Positions 21,022 through 52,744 of a DNA stretch of 64,000 bases are shown here, piece after piece; within the stretch, counting starts at the first letter, position 1, and the number at the start of each line of letters is the position of its first letter. The notes beneath the pieces were generated by a model that was given only the letters and a program-made list of their open reading frames with translations, had not been told where the DNA came from and did no database searches. Location: contig MFAS01000001.1 of the NCBI GenBank assembly GCA_001774685.1, positions 91,489 through 155,488 on the forward strand, given 5' to 3'. The stretch comes from Candidatus Collierbacteria bacterium RIFOXYD2_FULL_45_13. GTDB taxonomy: Bacteria > Patescibacteriota > Microgenomatia > UBA1400 > MFAQ01. The position numbers and the translations under genes were made by a program.

Positions 21022-22332
21022 TTAGGCAAATACCTTTGGTATTTCTCTTATTTTACTCACTAGATAATCAATTTCCTTCTTGGTGTTGTACACATAGAAT
21101 GTCGCTCTGACCATTGCCGGTACCCCAAAGCTCATTACCAGTGGAGCCGCGCAATGCTGGCCGGATCGCACAGCAATCCCAAAACTATCGAGTACTTGTG
21201 CCGCATCATGAGGATGAACCCCAATCACATTGAAAGCCAGTGCTCCACCTCTTTCTTCAATATCTCTAGGGCCATAGAGCTTTACCAAACCCTCTTCTTC
21301 CAGCTTAGACATTCTCTCGAGTGCATATTTAATTAGTTCTTTTTCGTGTTCGCGCACATTGTCCATTCCCAGATTTTCCAGATAATCTACCGCCGCTCCC
21401 AACCCAATTATCCCGGCAATGTCCGGCGTTCCCGCCTCAAACCTGCTGGGAATATCTGCCCACGTCGCTCCGGTTATTTTTACCTCCCCTATCATGTCTC
21501 CCCCGTATAAAAAGGGTCTCATTTTTGAAAGAATTTCTTTCCTTCCCCACAATACCCCTGTCCCGGTTGGCCCCAGCATTTTATGTCCGGAAAAAGCGAT
21601 AAAATCCGCTCCCAACGTCTTCACATCTACCTTCATATGAGGCACCATCTGTGAGGCATCCACCACCACCGTTGCATTTTGGGCCTTTCTTTTTATCGCT
21701 GTCAGCATTCCGGCAAGGTCAGGGATCGTTCCCAGCACATTAGAGACTCCGGTAACGGAAAAAAGTTTCACTTTCCCATCCGCTATCAGACTCTCCAAAC
21801 TTCCCAGTCTCACTCTCAATCCATTCTCAATAAAAACCTCACTTTGAGTTTTAGAGTTTTTGATTTTTTGATTTTTGACTATCAGCTTTCCCTCTCCATC
21901 GACATCAATAATTCTCAGCTCCGCTCCCGTCTCTCGGCAAAGTTCCTGCCAAGGTACCAGGTTTGAGTGATGTTCCAGTTTACTGATAAGTACTGCATCT
22001 TCTTTTTTTATATTATCCCTGCCCCACGAATACATGATCAGATTCAAACTCTCGCTGGCATTTCTGGTAAAAATGATTTCTTCGGGTCTGGCTCCAATAA
22101 AATTTGCCACTTTCTCCCTCGCTTCGTCTACCAACCCAGTTGATTCCACCGACAGTTCGTAAACCCCTCTATGAATATTCGCATTTGTATTCCGATAAAA
22201 GTCGTCCATCGCCTTGATAACGCTCTCCGGCTTTTGGCTCGTCGCCCCGCTATCTAGAAACACCAAGTCATGTCCATGAATTTTTCTCTTTAATATCGGG
22301 AAATCATTTCTGACTTTTTCTACATCAAACAT
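21022..22332 (-). CDS. sufS: Cysteine desulfurase SufS (class V aminotransferase)
   Basis: SGHKMLGPTGTGVLWG (PLP-Lys), RSGQHCAAP (catalytic Cys). Confidence 0.9.
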   Translation of the reverse strand: MFDVEKVRNDFPILKRKIHGHDLVFLDSGATSQKPESVIKAMDDFYRNTNANIHRGVYELSVESTGLVDEAREKVANFIGARPEEIIFTRNASESLNLIMYSWGRDNIKKEDAVLISKLEHHSNLVPWQELCRETGAELRIIDVDGEGKLIVKNQKIKNSKTQSEVFIENGLRVRLGSLESLIADGKVKLFSVTGVSNVLGTIPDLAGMLTAIKRKAQNATVVVDASQMVPHMKVDVKTLGADFIAFSGHKMLGPTGTGVLWGRKEILSKMRPFLYGGDMIGEVKITGATWADIPSRFEAGTPDIAGIIGLGAAVDYLENLGMDNVREHEKELIKYALERMSKLEEEGLVKLYGPRDIEERGGALAFNVIGVHPHDAAQVLDSFGIAVRSGQHCAAPLVMSFGVPAMVRATFYVYNTKKEIDYLVSKIREIPKVFA

Positions 22333-22349
22333 AGGTATATTGTAATGCG

Positions 22350-22970
22350 TTACTGTGTCACCGTGTCACTTTTGTTAATAGCATTGTCCTCCTTCACCTC
22401 TCCCTCGTGATACTGTGTCACCGTGTCACTTTTGTTAATAATGTTTTTATCTTCCATTTTCACACCATCTCCCCCGTGATACGGTGACACGGTGGCGCTT
22501 TTGTTTACTATGTCTTTTAAGTAGTTTTCAGAATCTTGTTTTTCTTGGAATTTTGGATCGGCCACCCTCTGTCCACCATAACTTTTTGTTTTATATCCTG
22601 CAATAAATTTCGCAATCAGCCTGGATTCATAATCAGCCAAATCCTGAACTTTCTTAAAGTCTCCTTCAGATATTAATTCCTGATCGTAAGCTACGTATAG
22701 TTGGGCTCGCACCTCACCGGCCGAACCTCTGGCAATATACAAAAAATACAAGAATTCGTCTTTTGTTCCTCTTTCAAACCCCTCAGAAATATTGCTAAGC
22801 ACTGAAACCGCGGCTCTTCGTATCTGGTCTTGTAAACTTCTATCCTTCCATTCGCTAGAAACTCTATATACCTCTTTCGTTAACTCTCTTGCTTTCTGCC
22901 AGATAAACAAATCTTCGAACTTTGATATTTTTCTGTTTTCGTTTATCATTTTATTTGTTGTATTTTTCAC
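22350..22970 (-). CDS. Four-helix-bundle protein (TIGR02436, 23S rRNA intervening-sequence protein family) with a repetitive C-terminal tail ending KSDTVTQ
   Basis: N-terminal ~120 aa: FIWQKARELTKEVYRVS...SNISEGFERGTKDEFLYFLYIARGSAGEVRAQL. C-terminal NKS[AD]TV..YH.G repeats encoded by a ~60-bp DNA repeat that contains GTGTCACCGTGTCAC. Confidence 0.65.
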   Translation of the reverse strand: MKNTTNKMINENRKISKFEDLFIWQKARELTKEVYRVSSEWKDRSLQDQIRRAAVSVLSNISEGFERGTKDEFLYFLYIARGSAGEVRAQLYVAYDQELISEGDFKKVQDLADYESRLIAKFIAGYKTKSYGGQRVADPKFQEKQDSENYLKDIVNKSATVSPYHGGDGVKMEDKNIINKSDTVTQYHEGEVKEDNAINKSDTVTQ

Positions 22971-22990
22971 TCACGCACATTCATCCCCAT

Positions 22991-23052
22991 GTCACGGTGT
23001 CACTGTGTCACTGTGTCACTGTGTCACTGTGTCACTGTGTCACTGTGTCACT
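22991..23052. repeat. Tandem 8-bp microsatellite (GTGTCACT) x ~7.5
   Basis: tgtcacggtgtcactgtgtcactgtgtcact... seen directly. Overlaps the last 7 codons of the SGNH gene and fills the gap to the next gene. Confidence 0.9.
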
Positions 23053-23757
23053 TAAAAAATATTTTCTCAAACCTGCAAGCTTCATTGTTCCAAATTCACC
23101 ATAGTCTAAAAGGTCAACTCCAAACACCTCCATGGCCAACTTCTCCGCGATTATCTGATTCCCAATCAAATTACAGTGCAAGAAATCAATGTCCCCAGGC
23201 TTCATTGTCCATTCTTTATTTTCCCAAAGATGTTTATAATCAAAAATCTTGCTTAGATCATATTTTTCATATTCCTCAAAAACATCCACGAATTTAACCT
23301 CCAACTCATCTGCAACTTTCTTGTAGATATCTCTTATTTGTTCTAACTTTGGGTTCAGGTCATTTTTTATCGTTTTGTACGTCGACCACAAAACCACGTT
23401 TGACCCAATAGACTTTATTTTCAAAACTAACTCCCTAAGCATTCCTTCCACATCCCCCACCAGCTCAAGATGATTAAAACCCAAAGAAATAACGACAGTA
23501 TCTGGGTTAAATCTTCCTACAAGAAACTCAAAATTTTCCATAAAAAAGGGAATTGTTCCTCCATCCATACCTGAGTTGATCATTTTTGTTTTCCAGCCGT
23601 TTTCTGTCGTTTGCCTCAAACTAAAGTCCAACCAATCAAACCAGTTTGGGTGACACCATTCTTGGCTTGTTGTGCTATCACCCACACAAACAATTGTTTT
23701 GAAGCCTGTGTTATTTTTTGGATTTGCTTGTAATTCCATTATCTTATTATCTTTCAT
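23032..23757 (-). CDS. SGNH/GDSL-family hydrolase; C-terminus ...FLSDTVTQ
   Basis: VCVGDSTT (GDS block I), DFLHCN (DxxH block V). Its ATG overlaps the upstream TGA (ATGA). Confidence 0.7.
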   Translation of the reverse strand: MKDNKIMELQANPKNNTGFKTIVCVGDSTTSQEWCHPNWFDWLDFSLRQTTENGWKTKMINSGMDGGTIPFFMENFEFLVGRFNPDTVVISLGFNHLELVGDVEGMLRELVLKIKSIGSNVVLWSTYKTIKNDLNPKLEQIRDIYKKVADELEVKFVDVFEEYEKYDLSKIFDYKHLWENKEWTMKPGDIDFLHCNLIGNQIIAEKLAMEVFGVDLLDYGEFGTMKLAGLRKYFLSDTVTQ

Positions 23758-24245
23758 TCTTGTGTCACCGTGTCACTTTTTTCTAATTCGAGTTTCCTTT
23801 TCAGTTCCTCCACATGTTCTTTACTCCAATGGTCTATGTCCTGAAGCAAAAACTTTCTGGCCGTCAAACCATATCCCTTCCATATTGGTTTATCCCACAA
23901 ATTTTCCGGCAGTGTATTGTAGATTTCCGTCAGTCTATTCCCCGCCCTCACTAATTCACCATATACTTCCTCCCAGGTATTATTTTTTCTTGCCTCTATC
24001 CCTTTTCTGTTAAACTCCTCCGTACTGGGTTCCCAATAAGGTTCAACTCCCTTTTTTAATTTTTCCAAACAATCAATATCGTGGACCATCCAGTTCGACA
24101 AATGAGCTGTCACGTCTTTCAGTGACCACTTGTCGAAAATGATTTTCGTTCTGCTTTCCTCAGGAAAATCTCCAACCAACCGGGTAATTTCTTCTTTAAC
24201 TTTCTCAAATTCCCCCAATAGTTTTTTTATTTCCGGCTCTGCCAT
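23754..24245 (-). CDS. ClbS/DfsB (DUF1706)-like four-helix-bundle protein; C-terminus ...KSDTVTQE
   Basis: DKWSLKDVTAHLSNWMVHD resembles the DUF1706 WS.KD..AHL..W signature. Confidence 0.5.
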   Translation of the reverse strand: MAEPEIKKLLGEFEKVKEEITRLVGDFPEESRTKIIFDKWSLKDVTAHLSNWMVHDIDCLEKLKKGVEPYWEPSTEEFNRKGIEARKNNTWEEVYGELVRAGNRLTEIYNTLPENLWDKPIWKGYGLTARKFLLQDIDHWSKEHVEELKRKLELEKSDTVTQE

Positions 24246-24261
24246 ATTCGTATTTTATCTT

Positions 24262-24741
24262 TTATTCTTCGGTTACCTCTTTCAGGAACCCTTCAACTAT
24301 TATTTTCTTGGCGTCCGGTTCGTCTATGCCTCGGCTTGATAGATAAAAGAGCTGATCCTCATCTATTTTACCGACAGTCGCAGCGTGGGATGCCCTCACG
24401 TCATTATTTTCTATTTCCAGTTTTGGTTCGGCCACCGCACTGCTTTGCTTATCCAACAACAACAATCTCATCTCTAAGAAGCTGTCCGTCTTTCTGGCGT
24501 CCTTTCCAATCTTCACCATCCCGTCTACGGTGACACGTGCGCCATTAGCCGCCACCCCTTTAATCACTACTCTCCCAAATGTATTTGGCACTCTATGGTC
24601 TGCCACCACTCTGACTTTATAGTCTCCCGGTTCCGTGGCAGATATAACCCCCAGAACTTCTTTTTCTTCAAACGAAGTCAAAAAGGGGACTACCAAATCA
24701 ATCTCTCCGGGTTTGTCCAATTTAAATCTCTGTGTGATCAT
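24262..24741 (-). CDS. sufD: Fe-S cluster assembly protein SufD, short form (SufBD C-terminal domain only)
   Basis: RASHAATVGKIDEDQLFYLSSRGIDE (the conserved SufBD C-terminal motif). Confidence 0.7.
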   Translation of the reverse strand: MITQRFKLDKPGEIDLVVPFLTSFEEKEVLGVISATEPGDYKVRVVADHRVPNTFGRVVIKGVAANGARVTVDGMVKIGKDARKTDSFLEMRLLLLDKQSSAVAEPKLEIENNDVRASHAATVGKIDEDQLFYLSSRGIDEPDAKKIIVEGFLKEVTEE

Positions 24742-24803
24742 ATTTTATTTATTTTTTGTTTTTGTCTTGAGTTCTAGAGTTCTTGATTTCTTGAGTTTTT
24801 TCT

Positions 24804-26952: not shown

Positions 26953-27339
26953 TTATCTTATTAAATCCTCCAGCGTATATTCCGCCAGCATATCCTCAAT
27001 CCGGAATGTAAGCCTGTCCATAAAACTTTGCTGGCCGCAGCTTCCATCTACAGGGCAGCTCTCACAAGCTACCGGGGCCACCTCACCCTCTATAGCCTCT
27101 AGAGCTTCTTTTACCAGTATCTCTTTTGGTTCGTAATTCAGGCTAAACCCTCCCCCCCTTCCCTCTTTCGAGTTTAAGATCCCCGCTTCGACCAGGGAAA
27201 CGGCAATTTTGGCCATAAAAGCCCTAGGCAAGCCTAACTCACTCAAATATTTAAGTGAAACCCGGCCTCCCCGGCCACGCTTGGCCAGCACAGACAAGAG
27301 CGCCATTCCGTAATCAGCCTTTTTTGTGAGTGTAAACAT
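26953..27339 (-). CDS. Rrf2-family transcriptional regulator (IscR/SufR-like) with a Cys cluster
   Basis: HTH SLKYLSELGLPRAFMAKIAVSL. Cys ligands CESCPVDGSC. Directly upstream of sufCBD. Confidence 0.8.
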   Translation of the reverse strand: MFTLTKKADYGMALLSVLAKRGRGGRVSLKYLSELGLPRAFMAKIAVSLVEAGILNSKEGRGGGFSLNYEPKEILVKEALEAIEGEVAPVACESCPVDGSCGQQSFMDRLTFRIEDMLAEYTLEDLIR

Positions 27340-51997: not shown

Positions 51998-52002
51998 ACA
52001 CA

Positions 52003-52085
52003 TAGTAACTAATAGAGTTACTTATATAGTTACTCTATATAGTAACTATATTGTTTCTCTAAATAGAGTATCTATAAAAGTTACT
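52003..52085. promoter_or_regulatory. Iteron-like cluster: 5 copies of AGTAAC/GTTACT in alternating orientation (candidate operator, origin or recombination site)
   Basis: catAGTAACtaatagaGTTACTtatataGTTACTctatatAGTAACtat ... aaaaGTTACTgt seen directly. Lies 45-125 nt upstream of the 52130 gene. Confidence 0.55.
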
Positions 52086-52129
52086 GTACCCGAAAGTATT
52101 AGAATCTCTAATTATTTCGGATAAACAAA

Positions 52130-52744
52130 ATGGGTAGATATTCGTATTCAAGCAAGTCAGAAGCCGACTCACTAAAAAGCGTCAGTGTCTATTGGCTAAA
52201 TAAATATAAATATCTAGAACCTGGCTATACAAAATCGGGTGGAATTGTATGGACTAGGTCAAATGGATCGAAAAACGACATCAGAATTTGTGTTTCCATC
52301 CCCGATCTTTATGTTCAATTCAAATATATTCAAACAGATCGTGAAACCGGAGAGAAAAAAGACTTTGACTACAAGATTCCACTCATCACGTCAGTATGCC
52401 ACTTTGGTGGAATAAGATATTGGTTCAAATGCAGTATGTATAAAAGCGGAAAGTTCTGTGGTCGGAGAGTAGCTACTGTTTACAAAGATGGAGACTACTT
52501 TGCTTGTAGGCATTGTTACGATCTCACATATTCGAGCAAAAAAGAAAATTATAAGGGTTTCTTTGGAATGTTGACAAAATTAATCTATGAAGAAAAAAGA
52601 ATGGAAGCAATTAGAGACTCTCTCAAGAGAAAGACCTACGCTGGCAGACCAACCAAAAAAGTTCGAAGGTTCCTCCGACTCGCTAGTCATCATCCGGAAA
52701 AGGTTCATGAGCTAATCGACCAAAATATATATCGAGCTCGTTGA
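52130..52744 (+). CDS. Zinc-finger protein, hypothetical (Cys4: CHFGG..C / C..CRHC)
   Basis: Basic C-terminus. Preceded by the iteron cluster and followed by the serine recombinase. Confidence 0.5.
   Translation: MGRYSYSSKSEADSLKSVSVYWLNKYKYLEPGYTKSGGIVWTRSNGSKNDIRICVSIPDLYVQFKYIQTDRETGEKKDFDYKIPLITSVCHFGGIRYWFKCSMYKSGKFCGRRVATVYKDGDYFACRHCYDLTYSSKKENYKGFFGMLTKLIYEEKRMEAIRDSLKRKTYAGRPTKKVRRFLRLASHHPEKVHELIDQNIYRAR

What the first reader, a model, noticed from the sequence alone, without database searches (positions are those of the whole stretch)
22991..23052. Microsatellite (GTGTCACT)x7.5 between the SGNH gene stop and the four-helix-bundle gene start
An 8-bp unit is repeated head-to-tail about 7.5 times. 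It overlaps the last codons of one gene and occupies the short region just upstream of the next. A non-triplet repeat at a promoter-proximal or gene-end position is the classic architecture for slipped-strand phase variation. Copy-number changes would alter spacing to the downstream start or the C-terminus of the upstream protein. It is also an expanded version of the GTGTCAC module shared by the three neighbouring genes, so it may mark the recombination-active core of that element.
Basis: seen in the sequence. Interest (0 to 1): 0.55.

Follow-up and report, generated by a model that had tools for sequence, protein, structure and literature searches.

The report
Octamer repeat flanking a four-helix-bundle gene
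The 8-base repeat is real, but it looks like one of two matching repeat arrays that bracket a small inserted "four-helix-bundle" gene, not an on/off expression switch; in 80 environmental contigs about four in five genes of this family had such arrays on each side, a pattern I found in no paper searched.

Summary
Observation confirmed. Window 22989-23052 holds (AGTGACAC)x7 plus a degenerate CGTGACAT on the minus (coding) strand. The genome is Candidatus Collierbacteria RIFOXYB2_FULL_46_14.

The first 21 nt encode the SGNH hydrolase C-terminus, SDTVTQ-stop. The PF05635 four-helix-bundle (4HB) gene starts about 40 nt after the array.

The phase-variation reading is not supported. TGA recurs in all three frames every 24 nt, so unit changes cannot alter either ORF. 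No promoter straddles the tract.

Comparative results point elsewhere:
- Relatives without the 4HB gene have no GTGACAC arrays at these junctions.
- Five related contig types with the gene carry the octamer array upstream, with 3, 5, 7 or 9 units, or a mixed array; four also show it downstream.
- Of 77 diverse 4HB loci with readable flanks, 65 have a 6-10 nt-period array just upstream and 62 just downstream. Control genes show 11/64 each.
- The two flanks usually match, mostly in inverted orientation.

So the array is the upstream boundary repeat of an element resembling a 23S-rRNA intervening sequence (IVS), sitting in an mRNA operon. Function (an RNA stem for processing, or a recombination boundary) is inferred, not shown. 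Copy number differs among assemblies of one population (7, 4, 3), but assembler collapse cannot be excluded.

The parts
22989..23052 (-). Upstream boundary array: (AGTGACAC)x7 at 23052-22997 plus a degenerate CGTGACAT at 22996-22989.
   Evidence: TRF score 119. Sequence read. Enrichment over shuffles. Orthologous arrays of 3-9 units in relatives.
23032..23757 (-). SGNH/GDSL hydrolase gene. Its last six codons (SDTVTQ) and its TGA stop are supplied by the array.
   Evidence: ORF list. Pfam Lipase_GDSL_2 1.3e-12. Orthologues in relatives without the array end ...YLKK or ...YLKSDKELSTI.
22350..22949 (-). Four-helix-bundle gene (PF05635, 23S_rRNA_IVP), the cargo bracketed by the arrays. An alternative GTG start lies at 22970.
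   Evidence: Pfam 2.5e-31. Present only in relatives that also carry the arrays.
22353..22370 (-). Downstream boundary module AGTGACACGGTGACACAG, followed directly by the TAA stop of the 4HB gene.
   Evidence: The equivalent modules in L011, L014, L016 and L225 lie at the 4HB|sufS junction.
22413..22430 (-). Second copy of the module, read through in frame as SDTVTQY. It belongs to a ~60-nt duplication in the 4HB tail.
   Evidence: In L011 the second module is non-coding.
22474..22499 (-). Degenerate third module AGCGCCACCGTGTCACCGTATCACGG. It contains the inverted heptamer GTGTCAC.
23761..23777 (-). Two-unit module AGTGACACGGTGACACA at the 3' end of the DinB-like gene, just before the SGNH start codon.
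   Evidence: In relatives L015, L016 and L225 a module at this junction ends sufD instead.
23754..24245 (-). DinB-like accessory gene ending KSDTVTQE. It is present in only some relatives of this operon.
   Evidence: Weak Pfam DinB_2 hit, 0.0012. Homologues and their C-terminal tails.

Best explanation
The tract is the upstream member of a pair of short tandem-repeat arrays that bracket a small inserted gene. That gene is a PF05635 four-helix-bundle gene, the family first found inside 23S rRNA intervening sequences (IVS). Here it sits between the SGNH hydrolase gene and sufS in the suf operon of a Collierbacteria lineage.

Shown:
- The arrays and the 4HB gene occur together or not at all at this site in related genomes.
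- Arrays with periods of 6-10 nt lie just upstream and just downstream of about four in five 4HB genes sampled from 80 environmental contigs.
- The two flanks of a gene usually share sequence, most often in inverted orientation.
- The unit number differs between species.

Inferred:
- The arrays grow and shrink by replication slippage.
- In the transcript the two flanks pair and enclose the ORF in a stem. This is the layout of rRNA IVS elements, which RNase III excises. In this lineage the unit GTG-A-CAC is itself a near-palindrome, so arrays in direct orientation can still pair, though with a mismatch every fourth base.
- The arrays also act as recombination boundaries at which the neighbouring accessory genes (DinB-like, SGNH) are gained or lost.

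A side effect is that the array stops translation in every frame. Whichever gene lies upstream therefore gains the tail (S)DTVTQ and a TGA stop. The tract is not a frame or promoter switch.
For: (1) Presence and absence at the site.
- Relatives L138 and L141 have Rrf2-sufC-sufB-sufD-SGNH-sufS with no 4HB gene and no GTGACAC array at either junction.
- The window, L011, L014, L016 and L225 have the 4HB gene with GTGACAC-type arrays or modules on both sides.

(2) Generality, from 80 4HB loci in metagenome contigs.
- A tandem array of period 6-10 lies within 120 nt upstream in 65/77 and downstream in 62/77.
- Other genes in the same contigs show 11/64 and 11/64. Fisher p = 3e-16 and 2e-14.

(3) The flanks are related.
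- At least 3 shared exact 10-mers: inverted only in 28 of 73 loci, direct only in 9, both in 6. Mismatched-locus controls give 7/219 inverted and 3/219 direct.
- The longest exact inverted match is 12 nt or more in 32/73 loci, against 1/73 in controls.
- In L193 the arms form a 34-bp perfect duplex that mirrors a variant unit.

(4) Pairing at this locus. The upstream and downstream flanks give a duplex of -39.9 kcal/mol, z = -5.0 against shuffles. L014 gives -35.2, z = -5.1.

(5) The signal is in the DNA or RNA, not the protein.
- The same octamers are non-coding in L011.
- They are read in another frame at the sufD end of L016 (SVTQ-stop).
- 30 of the 60 closest 4HB homologues end V[TS][QRL], which is GTGACAC-N-G followed by TGA.

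(6) Independent example. L120, a high-GC contig outside this candidate-phyla (CPR) lineage, has a GGTGACAC-type array, then the 4HB ORF, then a GGTGACCC array plus an inverted array. The stop codon comes from the array.

(7) None of the 80 loci lies in an rRNA gene.

(8) Rfam holds no known RNA family at this site.
Against: - No transcript or processing data exist for this locus. RNase III cleavage is argued only by analogy with rRNA IVS elements (PMC4990558).
- The pairing here is made of 3-bp helices interrupted by A.A or A.G mismatches. The array with its immediate flanks does not fold better than shuffles (z = -0.45).
- 30 of 73 loci show no strong relation between their flanks.
- GTGACAC-type arrays mostly occur without a 4HB gene. 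Only 2 of 120 genome hits have one within 8 kb, and only one of these is adjacent.
- Short arrays of other sequences occupy the sufB|sufD junction even in a relative that lacks the 4HB gene. Arrays are therefore also a general habit of these genomes.
- At the suf locus the co-occurrence with 4HB may reflect a single ancestral insertion.
- No mobility enzyme has been identified.
Confidence: 0.6

Rival explanations
1. Classical phase-variable contingency locus. Slipped-strand changes in unit number would switch or tune expression of the 4HB gene, or change the SGNH C-terminus.
For: - It is a non-triplet repeat at a gene junction.
- Unit number differs among species: 3, 5, 7 and 9.
- Unit number differs among assemblies of one otherwise identical population: 7, 4 and 3. 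L001 and L002 show zero mismatches over 12.7 kb apart from the 24-bp difference in the array.
Against: - The tract lies after the SGNH stop codon and about 40 nt before the 4HB start.
- TGA occurs in all three frames, so the upstream protein is unchanged at any copy number of 3 or more.
- No promoter spans the tract.
- Matching arrays lie on both sides of the gene and around homologues in free-living environmental bacteria.
- The 4- and 3-unit alleles occur only in MEGAHIT assemblies. They equal the minimal loop traversals expected at k = 29 and k = 21.
- Logan contigs break after 30 nt of repeat, which is k-1 for k = 31.
Confidence: 0.1
2. Functionless slippage-prone microsatellite. Operon junctions in this lineage simply accumulate 7-8 nt arrays, and their adjacency to the 4HB gene is incidental.
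For: - The sufB|sufD junction carries unrelated short arrays in the window, L014, L141 and L223. L141 lacks the 4HB gene.
- 17% of control gene ends in 4HB-bearing contigs also have arrays.
- GTGAC-type octamer arrays occur in many phyla, mostly without a 4HB gene nearby.
Against: - Arrays flank 81-84% of 4HB genes against 17% of control genes.
- The two flanks of a gene match each other far more often than flanks from different loci do.
- The same octamer persists at orthologous junctions in species whose proteins are only 71-77% identical.
- It is absent from the empty site.
Confidence: 0.18
3. Iteron-like binding array. The repeated octamers would be binding sites on DNA or RNA for an oligomeric protein, such as the pentameric 4HB protein itself or the operon's Rrf2 regulator, giving autoregulation.
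For: - The units GTG-N-CAC are regularly spaced and near-palindromic.
- Proteins of this family form homopentamers. The relative Avd acts with a reverse transcriptase on structured RNA (PMC4990558 introduction; bioRxiv 10.1101/2023.10.23.563531).
Against: - The unit sequence and even the period (7, 8 or 9) differ widely between lineages, while the 4HB core is conserved: 21 columns are invariant in A1. This argues against sequence-specific recognition by the 4HB protein.
- No binding data exist.
Confidence: 0.09
4. Protein-level signal. SDTVTQ would be a shared C-terminal tag, for example for sorting or degradation, selected in the three neighbouring proteins.
For: Three adjacent proteins end in (K)SDTVTQ, and orthologues keep the same tail.
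Against: - The repeat continues for about 40 nt beyond the stop codon.
- Copies are non-coding in L011.
- Copies are read in another frame in L016 (SVTQ).
- Other variants end VTP, VTR or VSL. The conserved thing is the DNA octamer, not the peptide.
Confidence: 0.03

Closest known systems
23S rRNA intervening sequences (IVS) carrying an S23p/PF05635 ORF (Leptospira, Coxiella)
   Same: - Same protein family in the middle.
- The element is bordered by sequences that can pair, leaving the ORF in the loop.
- It lies inside a transcribed unit.
- It is patchily present among relatives.
[quoted passage not shown]
   Different: - It sits in a protein-coding operon, not in rRNA. None of the 80 loci contains an rRNA gene.
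- The borders are tandem arrays of 7-9 nt units, not the unique inverted repeats described for Coxiella.
- At this locus the arrays are in direct orientation and pair only imperfectly.
- Processing is untested.
Phase-variable simple sequence repeats (contingency loci) of host-adapted bacteria such as Haemophilus and Neisseria
   Same: Head-to-tail short units prone to slippage, and a tract length that varies among genomes.
   Different: - The tract is outside both ORFs.
- It is not between promoter elements.
- It carries stop codons in every frame.
- It is paired with a second array on the other side of the gene.
- It is found in free-living groundwater bacteria.
Short tandemly repeated repetitive sequences and long simple sequence repeats of 5-11 nt; intergenic TAACTGA heptamer repeats (PMC4679880, which also summarises Mrazek et al. 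2007)
   Same: - Intergenic tandem arrays of 7-8 nt units.
- Sporadic spread across phyla, including Cyanobacteria and Bacteroidetes.
- Often very close to start codons.
- Function unknown.
   Different: - Those descriptions do not link the arrays to PF05635 genes. A term search of PMC4679880 found no mention of 'helix bundle', 'S23' or 'intervening'.
- They do not describe the paired, mostly inverted arrangement around one ORF.
Integron gene cassettes with attC sites
   Same: A row of small accessory genes in one orientation, each followed by a similar repeat at its 3' end. Gene content differs among relatives at repeat boundaries.
   Different: - No integrase gene appears among the called genes of the L001 locus, about 6 kb either side of the SGNH gene.
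- The repeats are 16-64 nt octamer arrays, not attC imperfect palindromes.
- The genes lie inside a housekeeping operon.

Membership tests
Phase-variable SSR contingency locus | The repeat tract lies inside an ORF, or between or next to promoter elements of the controlled gene. | tested here: not met
   Only the first 21 nt are coding, and they already include the stop codon. The tract ends about 40 nt before the next ATG. No promoter-like site spans it.
Phase-variable SSR contingency locus | Gain or loss of one unit changes the reading frame or the promoter spacing. | tested here: not met
   The 8-nt unit contains TGA, so a stop occurs in all three frames within 24 nt. The upstream protein is identical at 3, 4 and 7 units.
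Phase-variable SSR contingency locus | Tract length is heterogeneous within a population. | tested here: inconclusive
   Seven units in the window's own NCBI record plus five other contigs. Four units in two MEGAHIT contigs and three in one. The flanks are otherwise identical. Collapse at k = 29 or k = 21 would give the same numbers. No reads are available.
Phase-variable SSR contingency locus | Expression of the linked gene switches with tract length. | not testable with these tools
   No expression data.
rRNA intervening sequence (IVS) element | Encodes, or once encoded, a PF05635/S23p protein. | tested here: met
   23S_rRNA_IVP, E = 2.5e-31.
rRNA intervening sequence (IVS) element | Inserted in a helix of the 23S (or 16S) rRNA gene. 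| tested here: not met
   It lies between the SGNH gene and sufS in the suf operon. Rfam finds no rRNA here or in the 80 related loci.
rRNA intervening sequence (IVS) element | Bordered by complementary sequences that form a stable stem. | tested here: inconclusive
   At this locus the flank duplex is -39.9 kcal/mol, z = -5.0, but it is built of 3-bp helices with mismatches. In related loci the feature is clearly met in many cases: exact inverted matches of 12 nt or more in 32/73, and 34 bp in L193.
rRNA intervening sequence (IVS) element | Excised from the precursor transcript by RNase III. | not testable with these tools
Short tandem intergenic repeats (STRR / 5-11 nt long simple sequence repeats) | Head-to-tail direct copies of a 5-11 nt unit, longer than chance gives, mostly outside coding sequence. 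| tested here: met
   Period 8, 7.9 copies, 98% matches. Enrichment over shuffles. About two thirds of the tract is non-coding.
Integron cassette array | A tyrosine-recombinase integrase and attI site next to the cassettes; attC sites with conserved core sites. | tested here: not met
   The called genes and Pfam labels of the L001 locus, about 6 kb either side of the SGNH gene, show no integrase. The repeats are octamer arrays, not attC-like imperfect palindromes. No dedicated integrase search of the whole window was made.
Transposon / miniature inverted-repeat element | Terminal inverted repeats plus a target-site duplication, with a transposase in the element or elsewhere. | tested here: inconclusive
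   Many 4HB loci have inverted terminal arrays. At this locus the ends are direct repeats. No transposase or clear target-site duplication was identified. The filled site can be compared with the empty site, but the junctions are not sharp.

The most novel reading that the evidence does not exclude
PF05635 four-helix-bundle genes together with their flanking 7-9 nt tandem arrays would form a widespread family of IVS-like selfish elements. They would insert into transcribed DNA, in mRNA operons as well as in rRNA genes. The host would tolerate them because the arrays form a stem that is processed or that insulates the insert, and because some arrays stop translation in every frame. The much more numerous 'solo' arrays and array hairpins seen in Chloroflexi, Cyanobacteria, Planctomycetes and Bacteroidetes would then be ORF-less derivatives of these elements. 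The 4HB protein would take part in RNA handling or in spread of the element.
Probability: 0.3. Interest if true: 0.8.

Novelty: new variant of a known kind. Interest (0 to 1): 0.6.

Why it matters
The PF05635 (S23p / "23S rRNA intervening sequence protein" / Avd-like) family is very large and its function is unknown. How rRNA intervening sequences arise and spread is also an old open question.

This survey gives both questions a concrete sequence signature:
- In 80 environmental contigs, about four in five genes of the family had short tandem arrays on each side.
- The two arrays of a gene are usually copies of each other, mostly inverted.
- None of the 80 loci is in an rRNA gene.

That leads to direct experiments. 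Do the arrays pair and get cut? Does the protein bind them? Are the arrays the ends of a mobile unit?

The result also links the long-known but unexplained 7-8 nt intergenic repeats of Cyanobacteria and other phyla to a specific gene family. For genome annotation, it explains recurrent odd C-terminal tails such as SDTVTQ and ...VTQ as read-through into a repeat. It also explains why contigs break at these sites.

Tried and rejected
- Stable local RNA hairpin or terminator. The array with its flanks folds at -25.5 kcal/mol, z = -0.45 against shuffles. No terminator-like site lies nearby. Rejected.
- Promoter inside or across the array. Nothing above background.
- Known RNA family. Rfam gives only sub-threshold miRNA-hairpin look-alikes, 21-28 bits against gathering scores of 58-100.
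- Phage origin. blastn of the 781-nt element against phage genomes found no match.
- "Every GTGACAC array marks a 4HB gene." Rejected. Only 2 of 120 genome hits have a 4HB ORF, by phmmer or by an HMM built from alignment A1.
- 6-mer sharing as a test of flank relatedness. Discarded because mismatched-locus controls were as high as the real values. Replaced by 10-mers and by the longest exact match.
- duplexfold on whole 140-nt flanks. It gave large energies for shuffles as well and mixed z-scores, so it is used only as secondary support.
- Diversity-generating retroelement reading, because the Avd accessory protein of those elements is a PF05635 family member (my own recollection, not checked here). 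No reverse-transcriptase gene appears among the called genes of the L001 locus. No template/variable repeat pair was looked for. Not pursued.
- Literature. Five full-text searches found no paper that links PF05635 genes to flanking tandem arrays. The library is incomplete, so this is absence of evidence only.

Full report
**1. The observation**

Tandem Repeats Finder reports an array at 22990-23052 with period 8, 7.9 copies, 98% matches and score 119. It is the best-scoring array in the window.

The genes in this region are on the minus strand. On that strand the tract reads (AGTGACAC)x7 from 23052 to 22997, followed by a degenerate CGTGACAT at 22996-22989.

A two-unit pattern with up to two mismatches occurs 13 times in 64 kb, all between 22347 and 23776. 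Shuffles give 0.10 expected. The repeat is therefore real and far beyond chance.

- AGTGACACGGTGACACA ends the DinB-like gene (23777-23761).
- AGTGACACGGTGACACAG occurs twice in the tail of the next gene (22430-22413 and 22370-22353).
- A degenerate copy lies at 22499-22474.

**2. Gene context**

The locus is a suf operon. Read along the minus strand, the genes are:
- Rrf2 regulator, 26953-27339
- sufC
- sufB
- a short sufD, 24262-24741
- a DinB-like gene, 23754-24245
- an SGNH/GDSL hydrolase, 23032-23757
- a PF05635 "23S rRNA intervening sequence protein" four-helix-bundle (4HB) gene, 22350-22949
- sufS, 21022-22332
- sufU

The window is contig MFAP01000001.1 of GCA_001774675.1. A source record names the organism Candidatus Collierbacteria bacterium RIFOXYB2_FULL_46_14.

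**3. Why it is not a frame or promoter switch**

AGT GAC ACA GTG ACA CAG TGA encodes S-D-T-V-T-Q-stop. The 8-nt unit contains TGA, and 8 is not a multiple of 3. A stop therefore appears in each of the three frames within any 24 nt of array.

- The SGNH protein ends SDTVTQ at any copy number of three or more. Its sequence is indeed identical in contigs with 7, 4 and 3 units.
- The 4HB ATG lies about 40 nt beyond the array.
- The consensus scan finds no promoter-like site across the tract. The only strong candidate (11 of 12 positions) lies upstream of the Rrf2 gene at the head of the operon.
- The array with its immediate flanks does not fold better than shuffled sequence: -25.5 kcal/mol, z = -0.45.
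- Rfam has nothing real at this site.

**4. Length variation**

Within what appears to be one population:
- Seven units occur in the window and in the NCBI record it comes from (L001), and in five other contigs (L003, L005, L006, L007, L009).
- Four units occur in two MEGAHIT contigs, L002 and L227.
- Three units occur in one MEGAHIT contig, L010.
- L002 matches L001 over 12.7 kb with zero mismatches, apart from the 24-bp difference in the array.

I cannot exclude an assembly artefact:
- Three units (24 nt) and four units (32 nt) are exactly the shortest loop traversals expected at MEGAHIT's k = 21 and k = 29. This is my inference about the assembler.
- Two Logan contigs end after 30 nt of repeat, which is k-1 for k = 31.

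Between species the variation is not in doubt. Orthologous junctions carry:
- 9 units in L225
- 5 units in L011
- 3 units in L016 and L017
- a mixed direct and inverted arrangement in L014

**5. The arrays travel with the 4HB gene**

SGNH orthologues at 71-77% identity fall into two groups.

- Orthologues ending ...LLSDTVTQ or a variant come from operons with sufD-SGNH-4HB-sufS. Where the contig reaches that far, these carry GTGACAC arrays at the SGNH|4HB and 4HB|sufS junctions, and sometimes also at sufD|SGNH (L011, L014, L016; L015 is cut off inside the first array).
- Orthologues ending ...YLKK or ...YLKSDKELSTI come from operons with sufD-SGNH-sufS. These have no 4HB gene and no GTGACAC array at either junction (L138, L141).

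The DinB-like gene is also variable:
- In L225 the order is sufD-[2.6 units]-DinB-[9 units]-4HB-[modules]-sufS, with no SGNH gene.
- In another contig the called genes run sufC-sufB-sufD-DinB-4HB.
- The DNA just before the array, GAGAAAATATTTA..AAGTGACAC, is similar whether the upstream gene is SGNH or DinB-like.

The breakpoints of gene gain and loss in this operon therefore coincide with the arrays.

**6. The signal is in the nucleic acid, not the peptide**

- In L011 the second downstream module is non-coding.
- At the sufD end of L016 the same octamers are read in another frame (SVTQ-stop).
- In L225 the sufD tail is ...SDTVTP-stop.
- Of the 60 closest 4HB homologues, 30 end in V[TS][QRL]. 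This is what GTGACAC or GTGTCAC, then N, G and TGA would encode.

**7. Generalisation**

I built an alignment of 46 diverse 4HB proteins and used it to fetch 80 loci from metagenome contigs, at 38-67% identity to the query.

Array frequency:
- Running Tandem Repeats Finder on these loci shows an array of period 6-10 within 120 nt upstream of the start in 65 of 77 usable loci.
- An array lies within 120 nt downstream of the stop in 62 of 77.
- The background density of 0.54 arrays per kb predicts 0.087 arrays per window.
- Other genes in the same contigs, at least 400 nt away, have arrays in 11/64 and 11/64 cases. Fisher p = 3e-16 and 2e-14.

Unit sequences and periods differ by lineage. Examples are GGACTTT, AACTTTG, AACCTTGA, TTTAAACC, AACGGTTTA and GTGACACT.

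Within a locus the two flanks are usually copies of each other:
- At least three shared exact 10-mers occur in inverted orientation only in 28 of 73 loci, in direct orientation only in 9, and in both in 6.
- Mismatched-locus controls give 7/219 inverted and 3/219 direct.
- The longest exact inverted match is 12 nt or more in 32/73 loci, against 1/73 in controls, and 20 nt or more in 6.
- In L193 the arms form a perfect 34-bp duplex that even mirrors a variant unit.

None of the 80 loci contains an rRNA gene.

An independent example from a high-GC genome, L120, has a GGTGACAC-type array, then the 4HB ORF, then a GGTGACCC array followed by its inverted copy. The stop codon again comes from the array.

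**8. What it most likely is**

The layout is an ORF of this family enclosed by sequences that can pair, lying inside a transcribed unit and patchily present among relatives. That is the layout of 23S rRNA intervening sequences. [quoted passage not shown] PF05635 ORFs also occur in rRNA insertions of candidate-phyla (CPR) bacteria (bioRxiv 10.1101/2024.02.27.582315).

My reading is that the finding is the upstream boundary array of such an IVS-like element sitting in an mRNA operon.

In this lineage the unit GTG-A-CAC is a near-palindrome. Arrays in direct orientation on the two sides can therefore still pair. The duplex is -39.9 kcal/mol, z = -5.0, but it consists of 3-bp helices separated by mismatches.

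What remains inference:
- that the flanks pair in vivo
- that RNase III or another enzyme cuts them
- that the arrays mediate insertion or recombination

**9. Caveats**

- GTGAC-type octamer arrays are far more common than 4HB genes. These often form a forward array followed by an inverted array, that is, a long hairpin. Only two of them have a 4HB ORF within 8 kb.
- Short arrays of other sequences occupy the sufB|sufD junction in several relatives, including L141, which lacks the 4HB gene.
- So 4HB genes nearly always have arrays, but arrays do not need 4HB genes. Either 4HB genes insert into or next to arrays, or solo arrays are ORF-less remnants. I cannot tell which.
- At the suf locus the co-occurrence may trace back to a single insertion.

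**10. Comparison with known things and novelty**

- The tract meets the definition of a short intergenic tandem repeat (the STRR / 5-11 nt simple-sequence-repeat class; background in PMC4679880).
- It fails the anatomical criteria of a contingency locus.
- It shares the protein and the flanking-complement layout with rRNA IVS elements, but fails the defining rRNA location.
- It is not an integron cassette array.
- Five full-text searches found no description of PF05635 genes flanked by tandem arrays, and PMC4679880 does not mention the family. The library is incomplete, so prior description cannot be excluded.

I rate it a new variant of a known kind. The microsatellite itself is of modest interest. 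The general gene-and-array association it led to deserves follow-up.

Noticed in passing
window 24765-24797 (minus strand, sufB|sufD junction): A second octamer array lies one junction further upstream in the same operon: ACTCAAGA / AATCAAGA / ACTCTAGA / ACTCAAGA. Relatives carry different short arrays at this junction: a TAGATCG type in L014 and L141, and a GTGACAC type with an inverted middle unit in L223. L138 and L225 have almost no spacer there.
   Followed up: partly
window 21843-21878 (inside sufS, minus strand): An A-rich octamer array, (AAAATCAA/AAACTCAA) x4.6, lies in frame inside sufS and encodes roughly KNQKIKNSKTQS. The Pfam Aminotran_5 match to this protein is split into two stretches, which suggests a repeat-derived insertion in a housekeeping enzyme.
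   Followed up: no
window 22350-22560 (3' third of the 4HB gene): The 4HB protein (199 aa) is 35-45 aa longer than its closest full-length homologues of about 155-165 aa. Its ORF reads through two octamer modules where TGA has become TAT, which gives SDTVTQY. The tail is built from about 60-nt duplications, each holding a module. L225 has two modules and L011 has one coding plus one non-coding.
   Followed up: partly
L018-L137 (genome-contig hits), e.g. L098, L050, L028, L105, L134, L036: (GGTGACAN)n octamer arrays occur in Chloroflexi/Anaerolineae (many per genome), Cyanobacteria, Planctomycetes, Bacteroidetes and Actinobacteria. A forward array is often followed by its inverted copy, giving a long perfect hairpin. 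They often sit next to unrelated heptamer arrays. Most have no 4HB gene nearby.
   Followed up: partly
window 23754-24245 and loci L223, L225: The slot between sufD and the 4HB gene holds SGNH, a DinB-like gene, or both, depending on the species. The DinB-like proteins of several relatives end RKYL(L)SDTVTQ, the same tail as the SGNH proteins. This suggests recombination at, or just before, the array.
   Followed up: partly
window 52000-52090 (+ strand, intergenic): An intergenic cluster of alternating AGTAACT / AGTTACT motifs (TAGTAACTA, TAGAGTTACT, TATAGTTACT, TATAGTAACTA) lies upstream of the ORF at 52130-52744. TRF gives periods of 12 and 26. It looks like an operator or iteron set.
   Followed up: no
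L004, L008, L013, L015, L223, L224 (Logan contigs): Contigs from k = 31 assemblies end about 30 nt into the octamer array. The repeat is a systematic contig breaker, so short-read assemblies will under-report its length and its neighbours.
   Followed up: yes
window 24262-24741 and orthologues in L011, L014, L138, L141: The sufD-like gene is only 152-167 aa and covers just the C-terminal half of the SUFBD core domain (profile positions 108-232). This short form is conserved across all the relatives examined.
   Followed up: no
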